The position numbers and the translations under genes are program-made. A DNA stretch of 64,000 nucleotides, taken from the NCBI RefSeq assembly GCF_003334385.1, contig NZ_QOWN01000015.1. The stretch is one strand, 5' to 3'. A model generated the notes under the pieces. The model was not told the origin of the DNA. It did no database searches and worked only from the letters and a program-made list of their open reading frames with translations. The DNA comes from Escherichia coli (GTDB lineage: Bacteria > Pseudomonadota > Gammaproteobacteria > Enterobacterales > Enterobacteriaceae). Shown here one piece after another: positions 28,543-54,818 of this stretch. Numbering within the stretch: the first letter of the stretch is position 1; each line of letters opens with the position of its first letter.

Positions 28543-28641
<99 letters not shown>

Positions 28642-29594: not shown

Positions 29595-29683
29595 TGTAGG
29601 CCGGATAAGGCGTCCCCGCCGCATCCGGCACAGGCACCGTGCTGATGTCTGATGCGACGCTGGCGCGTCTTATCAGACCTACA
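29595..29683. repeat. REP/BIME element: two REP copies in opposite orientation
   Basis: TGTAGGCCGGATAAGGCGTCCCCGCCGCATCCGGCA at 29595-29630 and GATGCGACGCTGGCGCGTCTTATCAGACCTACA at 29651-29683. Confidence 0.85.
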
Positions 29684-41008: not shown

Positions 41009-42661
41009 TTACGCGCTCAACAGTTGCTTCATGTCTTCTTCAACAGTGGTGATAGAACGCAGGCCGAATTTCTCGTTCAGCACCGCCAGCAGGTCTGGTG
41101 TCAGGAAACCAGGTGCAGTCGGGCCGGTGACGATATTTTTCACGCCCAGAGAAAGCAGCGTCAGCAGAATGACGATCGCTTTCTGTTCAAACCAGGAGAG
41201 CACCAGCGACAGCGGCAGATCGTTGACACCGCAGCCCAGTTTCTCTGCCAGAGTGACAGCCAGAATAATCGCTGAGTAAGCATCGTTACATTGACCTGCA
41301 TCTACCAGACGCGGCAGACCTTCGATATCGCCAAACTCAAGTTTGTTAAAGCGATATTTACCACAGGCGAGGGTCAGGATCAGGCAGTCATCCGGCACGC
41401 TGGTGGCGAAATCGGTGAAGTAGTGGCGCTCGCCGCGTGCGCCGTCACAGCCACCAAGCAGGAAGATATGACGCAGTTTTTCACGGCTCACCAGATCAAT
41501 CAGCGTATCAGCAGCGCCAAGCAGCGTCTGGCGACCAAAACCCACGGTGATAAGGTGCGGAATTTCGCTGTACGGGAAGCCTGCCATCTGTTGCGCCTGG
41601 GTGATAACCGCAGAGAAATCATCACCGTCCAGATGACGCACGCCAGGCCAGCCAACAATGCTGCGGGTCCAGATACGATCGTCATAAGCGCCTACGGTTG
41701 GGTCGATGATGCAGTTCGAGGTCATCACGATGGGGCCAGGGAAACGAGCGAACTCCACTTGCTGATTCTGCCAGCCGCTGCCGTAGTTACCGACCAGATG
41801 CTTGAATTTACGCAGCTCCGGGTAGCCATGCGCAGGCAGCATTTCGCCGTGGGTGTAGACATTAACGCCCGTGCCTTCGGTCTGTTCCAGCAGGTTGTAG
41901 AGATCTTTGAGATCGTGACCGGAAATCAGAATGCATTTACCCGCCGTCGCTTTGACGTTGACCTGGGTTGGCGTCGGGTGACCGTATTTACCGGTTTCGC
42001 CTGCATCCAGAATGCTCATCACTTTGAAGTTCATCTGGCCGATTTCCATTGAACACTCAAGAAGCGCGTTCATATCGGCAGGCCAGGTCCCCAGCCACGC
42101 CATGATTTTATGGTACTGGGCATAAATATCGTTGTCGTATTGACCGAGAACATGCGCGTGTTCCATATAGGCCGCCGCACCTTTCAGGCCATACAGGCAC
42201 AGCAGACGCAGGCCGAGAATGTTTTCGCCAATCGCCGCTTTATCTTTGTTAGGGGTAAATTCTGCTGCCTGACGTTGCAGCTCGCCGAGATCGTCGCTCA
42301 CCAGTTGCAGGTCAGCCATCGGGTTATCGACGCGCGCGTTGGCATCTACAGCCAGGCATTGCGCTTTCAGCGCCTCGCGCAGGGCAATCGCTTCACGAGC
42401 GTAGCCGACAATACGCGGAGAATCGAAGTTAACGTTGGTCAGGGTTGAGAAAAAGGCACGTGGCGCGAAGCTGTCAACATCGTGGTTGATGATGCCGTAT
42501 TCACGCGCTTTTACCGCCCAGGCAGAAAGCCCTTGCAGCGCCGCGATGAGTAAATCCTGAAGGTCAGAAGTTTCCGCCGTTTTACCACACATCCCCTGCG
42601 CGTATGAGCAGCCGTTTCCTGCCGGAGTACGGATAGTTTGTTCACATTGCACACAAAACAT
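41009..42661 (-). CDS. hcp: Hybrid-cluster protein Hcp
   Basis: ORF 41009..42667 trimmed to ATG (550 aa); N-terminal Cys motif MFCVQCEQT. Confidence 0.93.
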
Positions 42662-42757
42662 GATCACACCTTTTAAAGTTATATTTAATATACATGTTTA
42701 AGGTTAAGACGCTTAACGCGGGGATAAAAGGGATTTTTCATGCAACTTTAAGGGAGA

Positions 42758-42771
42758 TTGATTTAGCGCAA
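42758..42771 (-). promoter_or_regulatory. Candidate FNR-type site upstream of hcp
   Basis: TTGAT-TTAG-CGCAA about 100 nt upstream of hcp ATG; 8/10 match to TTGAT-N4-ATCAA. Confidence 0.35.
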
Positions 42772-42804
42772 TTTTGGCGGCAGGGATCTACCGCCAGAGA
42801 GGTA

Positions 42805-43704
42805 TTACGCAGAGAAAAAGGCGATGAGGATCGGCACTAACAGGCTAAGAATAAAACCGTGAACAATTGCCGCCGGGACCATATCCAGCCCGCCAGTACG
42901 TTGAAGAACGGGCAGGGTGAAATCCATTGATGTGGCACCGCATAAGCCCAGTGCAGTAGAGCGGCTGCGGCGAATCAGCCCAGGGATCAACATAATAGCA
43001 ATCAGTTCACGGGCCAGATCATTAAAAAACGCCGCGCTCCCGATTACCGGACCAAAAGATTCGGTCAATAAAATACCGGAAAGAGAATACCAGCCGAAAC
43101 CGGAGGCCATTGCCAGCGCGGTATTGATGGGGAGATCAAGAATAAAGGCGTTAATTAAACCACCAATTAATGAACTGACAACCACCACCACGGCGACAAT
43201 CATTCCCCGGCGATTAAGGACAATCTGCTTTAAGGTCATGCCATTATTGCGCAACTGAATACCAACGAGGAAAAGTAGCAAAATTAACGTGTATTCACTG
43301 GCTTCGGTCGCGTGTTGTAAGAAAGCCAGTCCACTTAGACCAATGGCAAAACCAATCACTACTACGCCGCACAGTTTTAGCGACTCCAGCGCCATCGCAA
43401 TACGCGACGGGAGTTTTTCTTGCTGATGGTGGTTGCGCCACGGCAGGCCTCGCTCCAGCCACATCAGGGCGGCAATATTACACAGTAAAATAACGGTAAT
43501 ACTGACGGCAGAATAATGCAGAATCGCCAACAGGTTACTGGCGAGGTTATCGAGAAACGCCAGACTGATACCCATAAAAAAGAGAATAAGGTAAACCATC
43601 CAGCTTAATAGCTGATTAATAACTTTTAACGCAGCTTGTTGGCGGAGCGGAATGAGGTAACCCACAATCAGGGGAACCAGAATGATTAACAGCCCAGAAA
43701 ACAT
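42805..43704 (-). CDS. lysO: L-lysine exporter LysO (YbjE)
   Basis: ORF 42805..43752 trimmed to ATG (299 aa); multi-TM. Confidence 0.88.
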   Translation of the reverse strand: MFSGLLIILVPLIVGYLIPLRQQAALKVINQLLSWMVYLILFFMGISLAFLDNLASNLLAILHYSAVSITVILLCNIAALMWLERGLPWRNHHQQEKLPSRIAMALESLKLCGVVVIGFAIGLSGLAFLQHATEASEYTLILLLFLVGIQLRNNGMTLKQIVLNRRGMIVAVVVVVSSLIGGLINAFILDLPINTALAMASGFGWYSLSGILLTESFGPVIGSAAFFNDLARELIAIMLIPGLIRRSRSTALGLCGATSMDFTLPVLQRTGGLDMVPAAIVHGFILSLLVPILIAFFSA

Positions 43705-43916
43705 GAAAACCCAGTCCTTGCAAAGATGAAGTCGAAATGCGCGATGACACACTACTGAAAGCGGAAGGACGAGTAAAGTTGCAATTAAAAGGAAATGTTA
43801 TGCATAAGGAGCAGTAGAGTATTCGTTTTCATTTAAAGATATTCTTGCGCTTTAATTACAAACTGCACCGATGTTGGTGGCGTCAAAATCGCCGAGGCGT
43901 TCCCTGAAGGCCGGGG

Positions 43917-43938
43917 CAGCCCACATGGATGTGGGCTG
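43917..43938. repeat. Perfect palindrome (10-bp arms) in GC-rich lysO-aqpZ intergenic region
   Basis: CAGCCCACAT-GG-ATGTGGGCTG. Confidence 0.9.
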
Positions 43939-44043
43939 AGGGCGCGTTTTACAGGGATGTTACCTCGCGCCCGACCCGGTAGCCGTAAGGGATAAGTCGA
44001 GGGCACCGCGCAGCGGCGATTTTGTTCGCCAGAGCCCGGGGGT

Positions 44044-44075
44044 GCAGGGGGCGGCGGCGATTGGCCGCCCCCTGC
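44044..44075. repeat. Perfect GC-rich palindrome (12-bp arms, 8-nt spacer) in lysO-aqpZ intergenic region
   Basis: GCAGGGGGCGGC-GGCGATTG-GCCGCCCCCTGC. Confidence 0.9.
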
Positions 44076-44158
44076 GCGCTCCTTGCGCCAGTGGCAATAT
44101 GTTGCTTAGCTCATGAAAGGAGCGCAACAAGATGATGAATCAACATATAACAACATCT

Positions 44159-44188
44159 TAAAAAAAGGCCTGACATTACGCCAGGCCT
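44159..44188 (-). terminator. Rho-independent terminator of aqpZ
   Basis: Stem AGGCCTG/CAGGCCT with 9-nt loop; on minus strand followed by TTTTTT. Confidence 0.8.
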
Positions 44189-44198
44189 TCTGCGTTAA

Positions 44199-44894
44199 TT
44201 AATCACGCTTTTCCAGCAGGGGCCGGTAAATCAGACCACCGATAATGCCGCCGACAATTGGCACCACCCAGAAGAACCACAGTTGTTCTAATGCCCAGCC
44301 GCCCTGGAAGATAGCAACCGCGGTGCTGCGCGCCGGGTTAACAGAAGTGTTAGTCACCGGAATACTAATTAAGTGAATCAGGGTTAAGGCCAGACCAATA
44401 GCGATCGGCGCAAAACCTGCCGGCGCGAATTTGTCGGTTGCGCCGTGGATCACCAACAGGAAACCTGCACTCAATACCAGTTCAACTACCAGCGCGGAAA
44501 GCATGGAATAACCGCCTGGTGAATGCTCGCCATAACCGTTAGAAGCAAAACCGCTGGCTGCCGCGTCAAAACCCGTTTTACCACTGGCAATTAAATACAG
44601 CAGCGCCGCTGCAACAATACCGCCGACAACCTGGGCAATTACGTAGCCAACGACTTCTTTTGCCGGAAAACGTCCGCCAGCCCATAAACCAATAGTGACC
44701 GCCGGGTTAAAATGACCACCAGAAATATGACCAACAGCAAAGGCCATCGTCAGAACGGTCAGACCGAACGCCAACGCCACGCCGGCAAAACCAATGCCTA
44801 ATTCCGGGAAGCCTGCGGCCAGTACAGCACTACCACAGCCACCAAAAACAAGCCAGAAAGTACCAAAACATTCAGCTGCTAATTTTCTGAACAT
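44199..44894 (-). CDS. aqpZ: Aquaporin Z
   Basis: ORF 44199..44900 trimmed to ATG (231 aa); MIP-family NPA motifs (HFNPAV, SVNPAR). Confidence 0.95.
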
Positions 44895-45319
44895 ATCCAC
44901 CTCAATTAAAAATTGACCCTGTGAAAAATATGGTCGTTTTATAGGGTCGTCGTAAAAAAGTGACGACGGAAATAATGCGCGGCTATTTTAAAAACGAAGG
45001 CGAGTCATTCACCAGATAAATAAATCCAGTAAATTTGATTTAGGGCAACAGCGGGTTGCCCCATATAGTCATTTGTCTGATTGACAGTGTAGTGCACGCA
45101 AAAGATTTAATCCTTTAGGCGTAATAAAAAATAATTTATCATGCTAATTATTTGATTTTGTTGTTTTTGCAGACTTATCAGCAAGAGGGAGTATAACGCG
45201 ATTATTCGCTCATTTTTCAGACATTTGCCATGCTTAAATGTGATGTCATCACGTATTAGCAAGGCCTTTCCCGTTATACTGCCAGCGTAAAGGATAAGTC
45301 ACATATTTCTGGAGGGGAT

Positions 45320-46978
45320 ATGATTCTTGAGCGCGTTGAAATTGTGGGTTTTCGCGGTATCAACCGTTTGTCGTTGATGCTGGAACAAAACAACGTCCTG
45401 ATTGGGGAGAACGCGTGGGGTAAATCCAGCTTGCTGGACGCCTTAACTCTGCTGCTATCGCCAGAATCAGATCTCTACCATTTTGAGCGCGACGATTTCT
45501 GGTTCCCGCCGGGAGATATCAACGGGCGAGAACATCATCTGCATATTATTTTGACCTTCCGCGAATCGCTGCCAGGCCGACATCGGGTTCGCCGTTATCG
45601 GCCGCTGGAAGCGTGCTGGACGCCATGCACCGATGGCTATCACCGTATTTTTTATCGTCTGGAAGGGGAGAGTGCGGAAGACGGCAGCGTGATGACACTG
45701 CGCAGTTTTCTCGATAAAGACGGACATCCGATTGATGTCGAGGATATTAACGATCAGGCACGCCATCTGGTGCGTTTAATGCCGGTGCTGCGCTTGCGTG
45801 ATGCCCGTTTTATGCGCCGTATTCGTAACGGCACGGTGCCAAATGTCCCTAATGTGGAAGTCACCGCGCGCCAGCTCGATTTCCTCGCCCGTGAGTTATC
45901 CTCACATCCGCAAAATCTCTCTGATGGGCAGATTCGTCAGGGACTTTCCGCAATGGTACAGCTGCTTGAGCATTATTTCTCTGAGCAGGGGGCCGGACAG
46001 GCGCGATATCGTTTAATGCGGCGGCGAGCCAGCAATGAGCAACGAAGCTGGCGCTATCTGGATATCATCAACCGGATGATTGACCGACCTGGTGGGCGCT
46101 CGTATCGGGTTATTTTGCTCGGCCTATTTGCTACTTTGTTGCAGGCAAAAGGCACATTGCGACTGGATAAAGACGCCCGTCCATTGTTGCTGATCGAAGA
46201 TCCAGAAACCCGTTTACACCCCATTATGCTTTCAGTTGCCTGGCATCTGTTGAATCTTCTGCCATTGCAGCGCATTGCCACCACCAACTCGGGTGAGTTG
46301 CTTTCGTTAACGCCGGTAGAGCATGTTTGCCGACTGGTACGTGAGTCCTCGCGCGTTGCCGCCTGGCGTCTGGGGCCGAGTGGCTTGAGTACCGAAGATA
46401 GCCGACGCATATCCTTTCACATTCGTTTTAACCGTCCGTCATCGCTGTTTGCACGCTGCTGGTTGCTGGTGGAAGGGGAAACGGAAACCTGGGTTATCAA
46501 TGAACTGGCGCGTCAGTGCGGACATCATTTTGATGCCGAAGGGATCAAGGTCATTGAGTTTGCCCAGTCCGGGCTAAAGCCACTGGTTAAATTTGCCCGC
46601 CGAATGGGGATTGAATGGCATGTACTGGTCGATGGCGATGAAGCAGGGAAGAAATATGCCGCTACGGTACGCAGCCTGTTGAATAACGATCGGGAAGCCG
46701 AACGAGAACATTTAACGGCGTTACCGGCGCTGGATATGGAACATTTTATGTATCGCCAGGGATTTTCCGATGTGTTCCACCGCATGGCGCAAATCCCGGA
46801 AAATGTACCGATGAATCTACGCAAAATTATCTCGAAAGCGATCCATCGCTCTTCCAAACCCGATCTTGCCATTGAAGTGGCAATGGAGGCAGGACGTCGT
46901 GGTGTGGACTCCGTACCGACGCTGCTGAAAAAAATGTTCTCACGCGTGCTGTGGCTGGCGCGCGGTCGCGCGGATTAA
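45320..46978 (+). CDS. ybjD: OLD-family ATPase-Toprim protein YbjD (predicted ATP-dependent nuclease, function unknown)
   Basis: ORF 552 aa; N-terminal Walker A GENAWGKSS (nt 45404-45430), Walker B-like LLLIEDPE, C-terminal Toprim-like motifs (LLVEGETE, VLVDGDEAG). Confidence 0.9.
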   Translation: MILERVEIVGFRGINRLSLMLEQNNVLIGENAWGKSSLLDALTLLLSPESDLYHFERDDFWFPPGDINGREHHLHIILTFRESLPGRHRVRRYRPLEACWTPCTDGYHRIFYRLEGESAEDGSVMTLRSFLDKDGHPIDVEDINDQARHLVRLMPVLRLRDARFMRRIRNGTVPNVPNVEVTARQLDFLARELSSHPQNLSDGQIRQGLSAMVQLLEHYFSEQGAGQARYRLMRRRASNEQRSWRYLDIINRMIDRPGGRSYRVILLGLFATLLQAKGTLRLDKDARPLLLIEDPETRLHPIMLSVAWHLLNLLPLQRIATTNSGELLSLTPVEHVCRLVRESSRVAAWRLGPSGLSTEDSRRISFHIRFNRPSSLFARCWLLVEGETETWVINELARQCGHHFDAEGIKVIEFAQSGLKPLVKFARRMGIEWHVLVDGDEAGKKYAATVRSLLNNDREAEREHLTALPALDMEHFMYRQGFSDVFHRMAQIPENVPMNLRKIISKAIHRSSKPDLAIEVAMEAGRRGVDSVPTLLKKMFSRVLWLARGRAD

Positions 46979-54599: not shown

Positions 54600-54687
54600 G
54601 TTCACTGCCGTACAGGCAGCTTAGAAATTCACAGGTAACATACTCCACCCGCCCACCATGTTCACTGCCGTACAGACAGATAAAATG
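54600..54687 (+). CRISPR. Vestigial type I-F CRISPR array: 2 repeats, 1 spacer of 32 bp, no cas genes
   Basis: Repeat 1 GTTCACTGCCGTACAGGCAGCTTAGAAA (54600-54627) matches the I-F consensus; spacer 54628-54659; repeat 2 (54660-54687) identical in the first 16 nt then degenerate, as expected for a terminal repeat. Confidence 0.85.
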
Positions 54688-54730: not shown

Positions 54731-54818
54731 TGGCGGTGAGGGGGGGATTCGAACCCCCGATACGTTGCCGTATACACACTTTCCAGGCGTGCTCCTTCAG
54801 CCACTCGGACACCTCACC
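54731..54818 (-). tRNA. serW: tRNA-Ser (anticodon GGA)
   Basis: Reverse complement reads GGTGAGGTGTCCGAGTGGCTGAAGGAGCACGCCTGGAAAGTG...GGTTCGAATCCCCCCCTCACCGCCA; long variable arm, encoded CCA. Confidence 0.95.

What the first reader, a model, noticed from the sequence alone, without database searches (positions are those of the whole stretch)
43900..44110. Unexplained GC-rich, highly structured element between lysO and aqpZ
The roughly 490-bp lysO-aqpZ intergenic region contains a conspicuously GC-rich block unlike the AT-rich promoter regions elsewhere in the window. It carries two perfect palindromes: CAGCCCACAT-GG-ATGTGGGCTG (43917-43938) and GCAGGGGGCGGC-GGCGATTG-GCCGCCCCCTGC (44044-44075). 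It lies upstream of lysO (minus strand) and just beyond the aqpZ terminator. It could be a structured 5' leader controlling lysO, a member of a small intergenic repeat family (boxC-like), or a protein-binding site. It is not a REP element; the REP copies elsewhere in this window look different.
Basis: seen in the sequence. Interest (0 to 1): 0.45.

Follow-up and report, generated by a model that had tools for sequence, protein, structure and literature searches.

The report
Known replication-gap repeat TRIP1a / RRS-lysO
The GC-rich block between lysO and aqpZ is the already catalogued TRIP1a repeat, also called the lysO "replication risk sequence": a tightly folding DNA element shown in E. coli to make the replication machinery leave a short single-stranded gap, not a lysO regulator.

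Summary
Both perfect palindromes sit at the stated coordinates in a 65% GC block with 33-37% GC flanks.

It is not unexplained. It is TRIP1a (Rudd 1999; Li 2024), identical to RRS-lysO (Pham/Cox/Goodman 2023, 2024; 2026 preprint). Those papers show it blocks lagging-strand synthesis and creates ssDNA gaps of up to 2 kb. A lysO-leader role is very unlikely.

New results here:
- Across Escherichia, Klebsiella, Citrobacter and Enterobacter, 25 of 49 base pairs show compensatory changes, and 99% of cells are paired.
- The 5' domain is a sub-threshold look-alike of Rfam TwoAYGGAY (30.6 bits against a threshold of 43). Its two GGA hairpin loops are conserved and close to the CsrA-binding consensus.
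- The proposed G-quadruplex tract is strong only in the Escherichia/Klebsiella lineage, but the hairpin it overlaps is kept everywhere by covariation.
- Orientation is dimorphic in nature: about 24% of complete E. coli genomes are flipped at lysO and 37% at dusC. One O157:H7 genome is flipped at both.
- Citrobacter carries head-to-head pairs.

Novelty: already known. The loop-recognition and RNA reading is unproven.

The parts
43857..44132 (+). The whole repeat unit, TRIP1a = RRS-lysO. By the published distances, Li et al.'s TRIP1a is 43863-44128 (158 bp upstream of the lysO start, 70 bp downstream of the aqpZ stop). Pham et al.'s RRS-lysO is 43872-44093 (168-389 bp upstream of lysO). 'Sense' means the + strand, which carries the G-tract and the TwoAYGGAY-like match.
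   Evidence: Similarity to the other copies and to the flipped allele begins at TTACAAAC... and ends at ...GCAACAA. Every one of 5426 complete E. coli genomes has a match, with a median of 3 places per genome. The coordinates follow from PMC10888264 and PMC11194060.
43875..44035 (+). Domain 1: a long closing stem P1 (43878-43891 with 44017-44031). Inside it are a junction stem (43912-43915 with 43975-43978) holding two adjacent hairpins, and a small hairpin CCGC-GCA-GCGG (44006-44016). This is the TwoAYGGAY-like part.
   Evidence: Rfam RF01731 gives 30.6 bits (gathering score 43), E = 0.043, full model length, at 43883-44022 on +. My covariance model R1 gives 186.1 bits. Compensatory changes occur in helices 1, 2, 4, 6 and 7.
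43917..43938 (+). Hairpin 1: a perfect 10-bp palindrome. The loop region is C-AUGGAU-G, with GGA at 43927-43929.
   Evidence: I9. Six of its 9 pairs show double changes across genera (helix 4). The loop keeps GGA even in copies found without requiring it.
43940..43972 (+). Hairpin 2: outer stem GGGCGCG/CGCGCCC, inner stem UAC/GUA, loop AGGGAU. The 12-mer UUACAGGGAUGU at 43949-43960 matches 11 of 12 positions of the CsrA SELEX consensus RUACARGGAUGU. That consensus is quoted from memory (Dubey 2005).
   Evidence: CA-N-GGA-Y-G is conserved in 46 homologues although it was not part of the search pattern. The direct repeat ACATGGATGT/ACAGGGATGT has 28-nt spacing (D5).
44038..44057 (+). G-tract GGGGGTGCAGGGGGCGGCGG, the G-quadruplex-forming sequence of Pham et al. 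2024. It overlaps the 5' arm of the palindrome listed next.
   Evidence: It is an exact match to the sequence printed in PMC11194060. G4Hunter score is 1.84. There is no canonical G3+N1-7 x4 motif.
44044..44075 (.). Perfect 12-bp GC palindrome with an 8-nt loop (hairpin P4).
   Evidence: I4. Six of 8 consensus pairs show double changes, for example CAGGGGGCGG/CCGCCCCCTG in E. coli against TAAAGGGCGT/ACGCCCTTTA in Citrobacter (helix 9).
44076..44125 (+). Hairpin P5: GCGCTCCTT pairs with AAGGAGCGC around a variable interior. The Shine-Dalgarno-like GGAG is simply the 3' strand of this stem.
   Evidence: I12. Covariation is GCGCTCC/GGAGCGC against CGTTCAC/GTGAACG (helix 10: three pairs with double changes).
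44158..44189 (-). Context only, not part of the repeat: the aqpZ intrinsic terminator (AAGGCCTG...CAGGCCTT followed by a T-run on the - strand). It is absent from the flipped allele.
   Evidence: (I20) and the sequence. The flipped allele in L027 lacks it.

Best explanation
The block is TRIP1a, one copy of the enterobacterial TRIP1 repeat family. It is the same object as RRS-lysO, one of the two 'replication risk sequences' of E. coli K-12.

Shown by others, experimentally: when the replication fork unwinds it, the exposed single strand folds into a very stable structure. The lagging-strand polymerase cannot copy through that structure. The Okazaki fragment is abandoned and a transient ssDNA gap of up to about 2 kb is left, which SSB and RecA load onto. 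[quoted passage not shown]

Shown here:
- The identity of the element.
- The + strand, which carries the G-tract, is the lagging-strand template in this window.
- A five-helix fold is conserved by compensatory substitutions across four genera.

Inferred here: what selection preserves family-wide is the base-paired fold together with its two GGA hairpin loops. It is not the G-quadruplex tract, and it is not a fixed orientation to the fork.
For: Identity:
- The block sits 158 bp upstream of the lysO start and 70 bp downstream of the aqpZ stop. It is 266 bp and 65% GC. Sister copies lie at dusC-yohP and putP-efeU.
- It contains the published sequence GGGGGTGCAGGGGGCGGCGG at 44038-44057.

Function, from the literature:
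- ssGap-seq shows RecA/SSB peaks on the lagging strand at the lysO and dusC loci, and they disappear when the RRS is deleted (PMC10287960).
- Pol I, II and IV are blocked on the G-strand. The element works at ectopic sites. The double deletion is recovered only with an insH7-8 amplification (PMC11194060).
- In a reconstituted replisome, gaps form at nearly every encounter when the G-strand is the lagging template, and at about 66% for the complementary strand (preprint 10.64898/2026.06.16.732529).

- GC skew of the window + strand is +0.030, so the + strand is the lagging-strand template.
- Folding z-scores are -5.3 to -7.5.
- 99.1% of cells are paired, against 86% in shuffles and 36-48% when partners are slid. 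25 of 49 pairs carry double changes, against 2-5 when slid.
Against: - Nothing argues against the identity.
- Against the G4-specific version of the mechanism: the tract is not a canonical G3+ quadruplex motif.
- G4Hunter reaches 1.5 or more in only 20 of 46 homologues. Citrobacter and most Enterobacter score 1.2 or less, yet they keep the overlapping hairpin by covariation.
- Hairpin thermodynamics are the same on both strands.
- Against a fixed lagging-strand orientation: 1286 of 5426 E. coli genomes carry the flipped allele at lysO and 2003 of 5426 at dusC.
- One O157:H7 genome has both copies with the G-strand on the leading-strand template, judged by GC skew.
- Ten of 12 Klebsiella copies show the opposite flank skew. 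This is a noisy measure.
- Loop sequences that stay conserved while stems covary are not explained by a purely structural roadblock.
Confidence: 0.87

Rival explanations
1. The element, or at least its 5' domain, also acts as a transcribed structured RNA of the TwoAYGGAY kind. Its two GGA hairpin loops would be bound by a dimeric loop-specific protein, most plausibly CsrA, so the RNA would act as a sponge or a CsrA-controlled 3'/5' UTR module.
For: - TwoAYGGAY (RF01731) is the recurring best Rfam family for copies from Escherichia and Citrobacter. The matches are always full length and on the sense strand, at 27.9-36.4 bits.
- Rfam places TwoAYGGAY in clan CL00106 with PrrB/RsmZ. Gardner and Eldai 2015 proposed it binds CsrA (PMC4333381).
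- Hairpin 2 reads UUACAGGGAUGU and hairpin 1 CACAUGGAUGUG, with the GGAs 28 nt apart.
- GGA is retained in both loops of pattern-independent partner copies whose stems are entirely different.
- In three of the four E. coli allele types the sense strand lies directly downstream of a gene and is co-directional with it: dusC, yohP or aqpZ.
Against: - All Rfam scores are below the gathering threshold of 43.
- No sigma-70 promoter or intrinsic terminator was found for the sense strand in the window or in a Citrobacter pair.
- In this window the sense strand is antisense to both neighbours.
- The CsrA CLIP-seq gene table of Potts 2017 lists ybjE and dusC as 'No' in all binding columns. Intergenic peaks were not examined.
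- G:U against A:C cells (23 against 7, few independent events) favour the sense strand only weakly.
- The DNA-level effect is reproduced with purified replisome alone.
Confidence: 0.15
2. It is a structured 5' leader, or another cis-regulator, of lysO that responds to lysine or arginine.
For: It lies upstream of lysO and is highly structured.
Against: - It ends 158 bp upstream of the start codon.
- Near-identical copies flank unrelated genes.
- The locus occurs with the element in either orientation, or with the core deleted, next to the same lysO.
- No riboswitch or leader family matches on the - strand.
- Structure conservation is not tied to lysO in Klebsiella, Citrobacter or Enterobacter.
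Confidence: 0.03
3. It is chiefly a relic of a non-autonomous mobile element (MITE- or REP-like). On this view its copies, orientation polymorphism and deletions reflect past transposition or recombination rather than selected function.
For: - It is multi-copy, with presence/absence, orientation and internal-deletion polymorphism.
- There are 6 or more copies in K. pneumoniae ATCC 13883, usually next to a REP-like palindrome.
- Citrobacter carries head-to-head pairs.
- Li 2024 documents rearrangements between copies.
Against: - No terminal inverted repeats, target duplications or associated transposase were seen.
- No copies were found in phages, and the 'plasmid' hits inspected carry chromosomal genes.
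- Each E. coli subtype is tied to one locus.
- Strong compensatory evolution and invariant loops across genera indicate purifying selection on the fold.
- K-12 shows conditional essentiality.
Confidence: 0.08

Closest known systems
TRIP1 repeats of E. coli K-12 (Rudd 1999; Li et al. 2024, PMC10888264)
   Same: Same object. The position relative to ybjE/lysO and aqpZ, the length, the GC content, and the sister copies at putP-efeU (TRIP1b) and yohI/dusC (TRIP1c) all match.
   Different: Nothing differs.
Replication risk sequence RRS-lysO (Pham et al. 2023, PMC10287960; 2024, PMC11194060; Kusi-Appauh et al. 2026 preprint)
   Same: Same object. It lies 168-389 bp upstream of lysO and contains GGGGGTGCAGGGGGCGGCGG, and the G-strand is the lagging-strand template.
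   Different: Those papers attribute the block to a G-quadruplex and describe positioning as highly conserved. Here the G-tract is lineage-specific, the hairpin fold and GGA loops are the conserved features, and orientation is dimorphic among natural E. coli.
TwoAYGGAY RNA motif (Rfam RF01731; Weinberg 2010)
   Same: Both have a long closing stem around two adjacent hairpins whose loops read AC-AUGGAU-GU and UAC-AGGGAY-GUA. Both are multi-copy within a gamma-proteobacterial genome (Psychromonas). The function of both as RNA is unknown. The match is strand-consistent and covers the full model length.
   Different: Scores are 27.9-36.4 bits, below the gathering score of 43. No enterobacterial sequences were found in the stored part of Weinberg's alignment. 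The element here carries two additional 3' hairpins and is far more GC-rich.
CsrA/RsmA-sequestering sRNAs (CsrB, CsrC, RsmZ, McaS)
   Same: GGA motifs are presented in hairpin loops with near-consensus flanks. Two sites lie at a spacing a CsrA dimer could bridge.
   Different: There are only two loop GGAs. No promoter or terminator was found, no expression or binding evidence exists, and CLIP-seq gene tables are negative for the neighbouring genes.
Neisseria gonorrhoeae pilE G4 and REP/BIME elements
   Same: The pilE G4 is the other known bacterial sequence that triggers gap formation during replication (cited). BIMEs are GC-rich intergenic palindromic repeats with topological roles.
   Different: The pilE element is a canonical G4 that needs a dedicated sRNA transcript. 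REPs are about 35-bp units recognised by gyrase, IHF and RAYT. Neither shows sequence or covariance-model similarity to this element.

Membership tests
TRIP1 repeat family (TRIP1a) | [quoted passage not shown] | tested here: met
   The lysO start is at 43704 and the aqpZ stop at 44199, which gives 43863-44128. GC is 0.65.
TRIP1 repeat family (TRIP1a) | Paralogous copies at putP-efeU (often with an internal deletion) and at dusC(yohI)-yohP | tested here: met
   L001/L002 are at dusC-yohP. L006 (full length) and L007 (deleted) are at efeU-putP. The median is 3 places per genome.
Replication risk sequence (RRS) | Contains 5'-GGGGGTGCAGGGGGCGGCGG-3' within the 222 bp lying 168-389 bp upstream of lysO | tested here: met
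   Exact match at 44038-44057 on the + strand, inside 43872-44093.
Replication risk sequence (RRS) | The G-rich strand is the lagging-strand template | tested here: met
   The window + strand has GC skew +0.030 over 64 kb and gene order collinear with the K-12 right replichore. This is not met in the O157:H7 genome examined.
Replication risk sequence (RRS) | Triggers RecA/SSB-bound ssDNA gaps on replisome passage | not testable with these tools
   Published for this exact K-12 sequence.
TwoAYGGAY RNA (RF01731) | Score at or above the Rfam gathering threshold (43 bits) | tested here: not met
   30.6 bits in the window and 27.9-36.4 bits in 9 other copies.
TwoAYGGAY RNA (RF01731) | Two hairpins with AYGGAY terminal loops | tested here: inconclusive
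   Hairpin 1 has AUGGAU, which fits. Hairpin 2 has AGGGAU here, with R at position 2. Homologues have AUGGAC, ACGGAC, AAGGAC and AGGGAC. At least one of Weinberg's own Psychromonas sequences also has AGGGAC.
TwoAYGGAY RNA (RF01731) | Closing P1 stem, often long | tested here: met
   P1 is 43878-43891 with 44017-44031, with compensatory changes: TGGCG/CGCCA in E. coli, TGGCC/GGCCA in Klebsiella, CCGGC/GCCGG in Citrobacter.
CsrA-binding RNA (clan CL00106 type) | Transcribed, and bound by CsrA through GGA loops | tested here: inconclusive
   The GGA loops are present and conserved. No promoter or terminator was found. The CLIP-seq gene table is negative for ybjE and dusC.
Canonical G-quadruplex | Four runs of three or more G separated by loops of 1-7 (or 1-12) nt | tested here: not met
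   The regular expression finds none in any of 46 homologues on either strand. G4Hunter is 1.84 here, and 1.5 or more in 20 of 46.
REP/BIME | Similarity to the REP palindromic unit or naRNA4 | tested here: not met
   naRNA4 matches at 29599-29679, not here. There is no REP-type match in 42500-45500 at E up to 1.
boxC | Similarity to the 56-bp boxC consensus | not tested
   No reference sequence was available in the tools. The TRIP1 identity makes the test moot.

The most novel reading that the evidence does not exclude
TRIP1/RRS elements are the enterobacterial branch of the orphan TwoAYGGAY family. On this reading, what selection maintains is a two-GGA-loop fold read by a loop-specific factor, not a G-quadruplex. 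That factor could be CsrA acting on a sense transcript, or an unknown protein acting on the exposed single strand. Conversely, the TwoAYGGAY 'RNAs' of Psychromonas, Clostridia and gut metagenomes may be DNA-level replication-gap elements. Either way, the replication and topology phenotype of RRS and an unexplained Rfam motif would be two views of one element class.
Probability: 0.2. Interest if true: 0.75.

Novelty: already known. Interest (0 to 1): 0.4.

Why it matters
RRS elements are one of only two described bacterial sequences that programme post-replication gaps, and they are conditionally essential in K-12. Recognising the block as RRS-lysO closes the finding.

The comparative results here sharpen an open mechanistic question: is the active structure the G-quadruplex or the multi-hairpin fold?
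- The G-tract is lineage-specific, while the hairpins and two GGA loops are conserved by covariation.
- Both RRS loci are naturally inverted in a large minority of E. coli, including one O157:H7 genome inverted at both.
- Citrobacter uses head-to-head pairs.

These facts give direct, cheap tests: loop, stem and G-tract mutants, and ssGap-seq in O157:H7 and Citrobacter. They also give a candidate link to an orphan Rfam motif.

Tried and rejected
- **Promoter and terminator scans.** Scans around the element (window 43650-44300; Citrobacter L017 6650-7450) found no sense-strand sigma-70 promoter or intrinsic terminator.
- **Phages and plasmids.** The phage collection gave no match. All 34 'plasmid' hits are typed non-mobilizable. 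The four I inspected carry chromosomal genes. There is therefore no evidence of carriage on mobile DNA.
- **Canonical G4 regular expressions.** They found nothing in any homologue.
- **Wobble-pair strand test.** G:T cells outnumber A:C cells 23 to 7, but these come from only about 10 against 5 independent events. That is too few to assign a strand.
- **Mapping the single-sequence MFE onto the alignment.** This gave many non-conserved pairs in the extended P1 and in the interior of P5. The RNAalifold consensus was used instead.
- **Weinberg's TwoAYGGAY alignment.** I checked it for enterobacterial accessions and found none in the stored part.
- **CsrA CLIP-seq tables.** ybjE and dusC are negative.
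- **Coding potential.** The 37-57 aa ORFs overlapping the element are rejected. Homologues differ by 1-nt indels, and the substitutions follow base pairing, not codons.
- **Simple in-place inversion as the origin of the flipped alleles.** Rejected, because the roughly 50-bp flanks on both sides also differ between alleles and are not reverse complements of each other.
- **GC-skew orientation test on the short Klebsiella and Enterobacter loci.** It is noisy and only suggestive.
Full report
**1. Observation**

The lysO (42805-43704, -) to aqpZ (44199-44894, -) spacer contains a sharply bounded GC-rich block. GC is 0.65 over 43863-44128, against 0.33 and 0.37 in the flanking spacer and 0.51 for the window.

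The 64-kb window has only six perfect hairpins with stems of 10 bp or more, and two of them are here. Block shuffles give 0.47. The 275-nt stretch folds far better than dinucleotide shuffles, whether as RNA (z = -5.3) or as DNA on either strand (z = -7.4 and -7.5).

**2. It is a repeat**

A megablast of the spacer against 5426 complete E. coli genomes hits every genome, with a median of 3 places and up to 8. In 4030 genomes one place covers at least 80% of the spacer. Other copies lie between yohP and dusC (L001, L002) and between efeU and putP (L006 full length, L007 with an internal deletion). Some strains carry a 79-bp internal deletion at the lysO locus (L003). Relatives at 75-85% identity exist in Klebsiella and Citrobacter. 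None were found in phages.

**3. It is already named and studied**

A literature search on aqpZ/ybjE/intergenic returned Li et al. 2024 (PMC10888264). The element is TRIP1a of Rudd's 1999 repeat survey: 266 bp, 158 bp upstream of the ybjE start and 70 bp downstream of the aqpZ stop. TRIP1b lies at putP-ycdN and TRIP1c at yohI, with further types d and e in other strains.

A second search showed that TRIP1a and TRIP1c are the 'replication risk sequences' RRS-lysO and RRS-dusC of Pham, Cox, Goodman and colleagues (PMC10287960, PMC11194060). They report:
- 222-bp GC-rich inverted copies, each about 650 kb from dif;
- strong RecA/SSB-ssDNA peaks on the lagging strand that vanish when the RRS is deleted;
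- a block to Pol I, II and IV at a predicted G-quadruplex, GGGGGTGCAGGGGGCGGCGG;
- activity at ectopic sites;
- a double deletion that is recovered only with an insH7-8 amplification;
- altered global supercoiling.

A 2026 preprint reconstitutes the effect with purified replisome. Gaps form at nearly every encounter when the G-strand is the lagging template, and at about 66% for the complementary strand.

The published G-tract is at 44038-44057 on the + strand. The + strand has GC skew +0.030 and K-12 gene order, so it is the lagging-strand template, as published.

**4. What the sequence comparison adds: structure**

A pattern scan of species-representative genomes returned 45 loci. They come from Escherichia, Klebsiella (6 or more copies in K. 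pneumoniae ATCC 13883), Citrobacter (3-4 copies), Enterobacter and Pseudocitrobacter. A 46-sequence alignment (A4) gives an RNAalifold consensus of 49 pairs in 10 helices, and 25 pairs carry changes on both sides.

Counting those pairs gives the following:

| Measure | Observed | Column shuffles | Partners slid by 1-3 columns |
|---|---|---|---|
| Cells forming a standard pair | 99.1% | 86.1% | 36-48% |
| Pairs with double changes | 25 | 21.4 | 2-5 |
| Covariation score | 0.408 | 0.167 | 0.04-0.08 |

The fold has these parts:
- a long stem P1;
- a three-way junction bearing two adjacent hairpins;
- a small hairpin;
- the perfect 12-bp GC palindrome;
- a final hairpin whose 3' strand is the Shine-Dalgarno-like AAGGAGCGC.

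This is selection on base pairing, and it holds across four genera. I found no covariation analysis in the TRIP1/RRS papers I read. They show only single-sequence folds.

**5. G-quadruplex versus hairpin**

The published G4 tract overlaps the 5' arm of the 12-bp palindrome. No homologue has a canonical G3+ quadruplex motif on either strand. G4Hunter reaches 1.5 or more at that site in only 20 of 46 sequences: Escherichia, Klebsiella, Pseudocitrobacter and one Enterobacter. Citrobacter and most Enterobacter copies score 1.2 or less. They nevertheless keep the hairpin through multiple compensatory changes, for example TAAAGGGCGTG/ACGCCCTTTA, TTAAGGGTGC/GCACCCTTAA and CCAGGGTAGC/GCTACCCTGG.

The feature conserved across the family is therefore the hairpin. 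The G-tract looks like a lineage-specific addition that may explain why the G-strand is the stronger block in E. coli. This is inference. The published strand asymmetry of polymerase arrest still favours some strand-specific structure in K-12, because hairpin energies are equal on both strands.

**6. Resemblance to TwoAYGGAY and to CsrA sites**

A permissive Rfam scan gives one match in the region. It is TwoAYGGAY (RF01731) at 43883-44022 on the + strand, over the full model length, at 30.6 bits (gathering score 43, E = 0.043). The same family is the recurring best hit, always on the sense strand, for nine other copies (27.9-36.4 bits).

Weinberg's description fits: two hairpins with AYGGAY loops closed by an often very long P1, multi-copy in the gamma-proteobacterium Psychromonas. 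The loop-plus-closing sequences are the same (AC-AUGGAU-GU and UAC-AGGGAY-GUA). Rfam groups TwoAYGGAY with PrrB/RsmZ in one clan, and Gardner and Eldai proposed it binds CsrA.

Hairpin 2 here reads UUACAGGGAUGU. That matches 11 of 12 positions of the CsrA SELEX consensus RUACARGGAUGU, which I quote from memory (Dubey 2005). The two GGAs are 28 nt apart.

My scan pattern fixed the first loop, so I built a covariance model of domain 1 (R1) and searched all loci. It recovered about 20 further matches that were found without the pattern. Most are head-to-head partners in Citrobacter and one in Pseudocitrobacter. Their stems are quite different, yet both loops still carry GGA: CAGGGAUG, CAGGAAUG and CAAGGAAG in hairpin 1, and GCAGGGACGC and GCAUGGACGC in hairpin 2. 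Conserved loops on covarying stems suggest something reads the loops.

Against an RNA or CsrA role:
- the Rfam threshold is not met;
- no sense promoter or terminator was found;
- in this window the sense strand is antisense to both neighbours;
- the CsrA CLIP-seq gene table lists ybjE and dusC as unbound;
- the wobble-pair strand test is inconclusive.

I therefore do not file the element as a TwoAYGGAY member or a CsrA ligand. I record it as the most interesting reading that remains open.

**7. Orientation is not conserved**

At the dusC locus the element occurs in both orientations relative to the same flanking genes (L001 against L002). Junction-specific megablast over the 5426 genomes gives these counts:

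| Locus | K-12 type | Flipped type |
|---|---|---|
| dusC | 3418 | 2003 |
| lysO | 3577 | 1286 |

In the flipped lysO allele the order is aqpZ, element, lysO, all co-directional, and the aqpZ terminator hairpin is missing. The lysO proportions agree with Li et al.'s forward and reverse counts for TRIP1a.

In O157:H7 strain F8797 both loci are flipped. Synteny with K-12 is intact, and local GC skew puts the G-strand on the leading-strand template at both loci (-0.028 at lysO, +0.036 at dusC with the element on the - strand). This natural arrangement corresponds to the laboratory 'double inverted' strain of Pham et al. That strain is viable, lacks RecA/SSB peaks at the inverted loci and has altered supercoiling.

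The alleles are not simple in-place inversions, because about 50 bp of flank on each side also differs. In Citrobacter the elements come as head-to-head pairs separated by an AT-rich spacer of about 90 bp, so one copy faces each way. Flank GC skew of the Klebsiella copies tends to the orientation opposite to K-12 in 10 of 12 cases, but this is a noisy measure. These data qualify the statement that RRS 'positioning' is highly conserved: the locus is conserved, the orientation is not.

**8. The lysO-leader idea**

This idea is rejected, for the following reasons:
- The element ends 158 bp upstream of the lysO start.
- Its strand-specific features are on the opposite strand.
- Sister copies flank unrelated genes.
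- The same lysO occurs with the element in either orientation or with the core deleted.
- No riboswitch or leader family matches.

**9. Verdict**

The finding is real but already explained: it is TRIP1a = RRS-lysO. The best-supported mechanism is the published one, a folded single strand that blocks lagging-strand synthesis and leaves a transient gap. The refinement inferred here is that the conserved active structure is the multi-hairpin fold with two GGA loops, not the G-tract, and that orientation to the fork is variable in nature.

Novelty is 'already known' and the interest score is moderate to low. The open question worth testing is whether the conserved GGA loops, which look like TwoAYGGAY and CsrA sites, mean that a protein or an RNA form of the element is involved.

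Noticed in passing
window 54600-54627 (+), next to tRNA 54734-54818 (-): Rfam CRISPR-DR4 gives a 28-nt match at 50.1 bits (gathering score 35) beside the tRNA (annotated tRNA-Ser at the same place in the O157:H7 locus L053). It is probably the orphan type I-F CRISPR repeat known between clpA and infA in E. coli; that identification is from memory.
   Followed up: no
window 29599-29679 (+), 28577-28619 (+), 16823-16901 (-): Rfam hits above threshold: naRNA4 (a REP325-type BIME), the ES036 sRNA and RybB. These are the genuine REP-type and sRNA elements of the window, and they are distinct from the TRIP1 element.
   Followed up: no
L017 6720-7364, and likewise L005, L012, L016, L029, L047, L049, L051, L052, L046: In Citrobacter and Pseudocitrobacter the TRIP1-like elements occur as head-to-head inverted pairs of two diverged subtypes. 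An AT-rich spacer of about 90 bp separates them, so each pair forms an imperfect palindrome of about 600 bp.
   Followed up: partly
L004, L022, L023, L033-L038, L040 (about 60-100 nt 5' of each element): Most of the Klebsiella-type copies listed here have a REP-like palindrome (for example GCCGGGTGGCGGCTGCGCCTTACCCGGCCTAC) just upstream. The conserved repeat unit extends about 60 nt further 5' than in E. coli. L040 is labelled a Sporobacter MAG, probably through contamination.
   Followed up: no
L008 484-642 (-), 750-949 (+): In an Enterobacter MAG a TRIP1-like copy lies about 120 nt from isrK, c4-a1b1 and C4 antisense RNA matches, which are prophage immunity-region RNAs. The element therefore abuts a prophage end.
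   Followed up: no
L003 1501-1867; L007 4001-4154: These are internal-deletion alleles. A 79-bp deletion at the lysO locus removes exactly the two GGA hairpins, with CCGA microhomology at the junction. The TRIP1b-type deletion removes everything from just inside hairpin 1 up to the GC palindrome, which it keeps.
   Followed up: partly
L011 (labelled Desulfacinum MAG), L019 ('Proteobacteria bacterium' MAG), L040 (labelled Sporobacter termitidis MAG): Copies that are near-identical to the Klebsiella or Escherichia type appear in MAGs assigned to unrelated taxa. This is most likely contig contamination or mis-binning rather than true distribution.
   Followed up: no
L053 20023-20479 and L027 3837-4312: In the flipped lysO-locus allele, which includes O157:H7, the aqpZ intrinsic terminator hairpin of K-12 is absent. 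aqpZ, the element's sense strand and lysO are all co-directional, so aqpZ read-through could transcribe the element and lysO together.
   Followed up: partly
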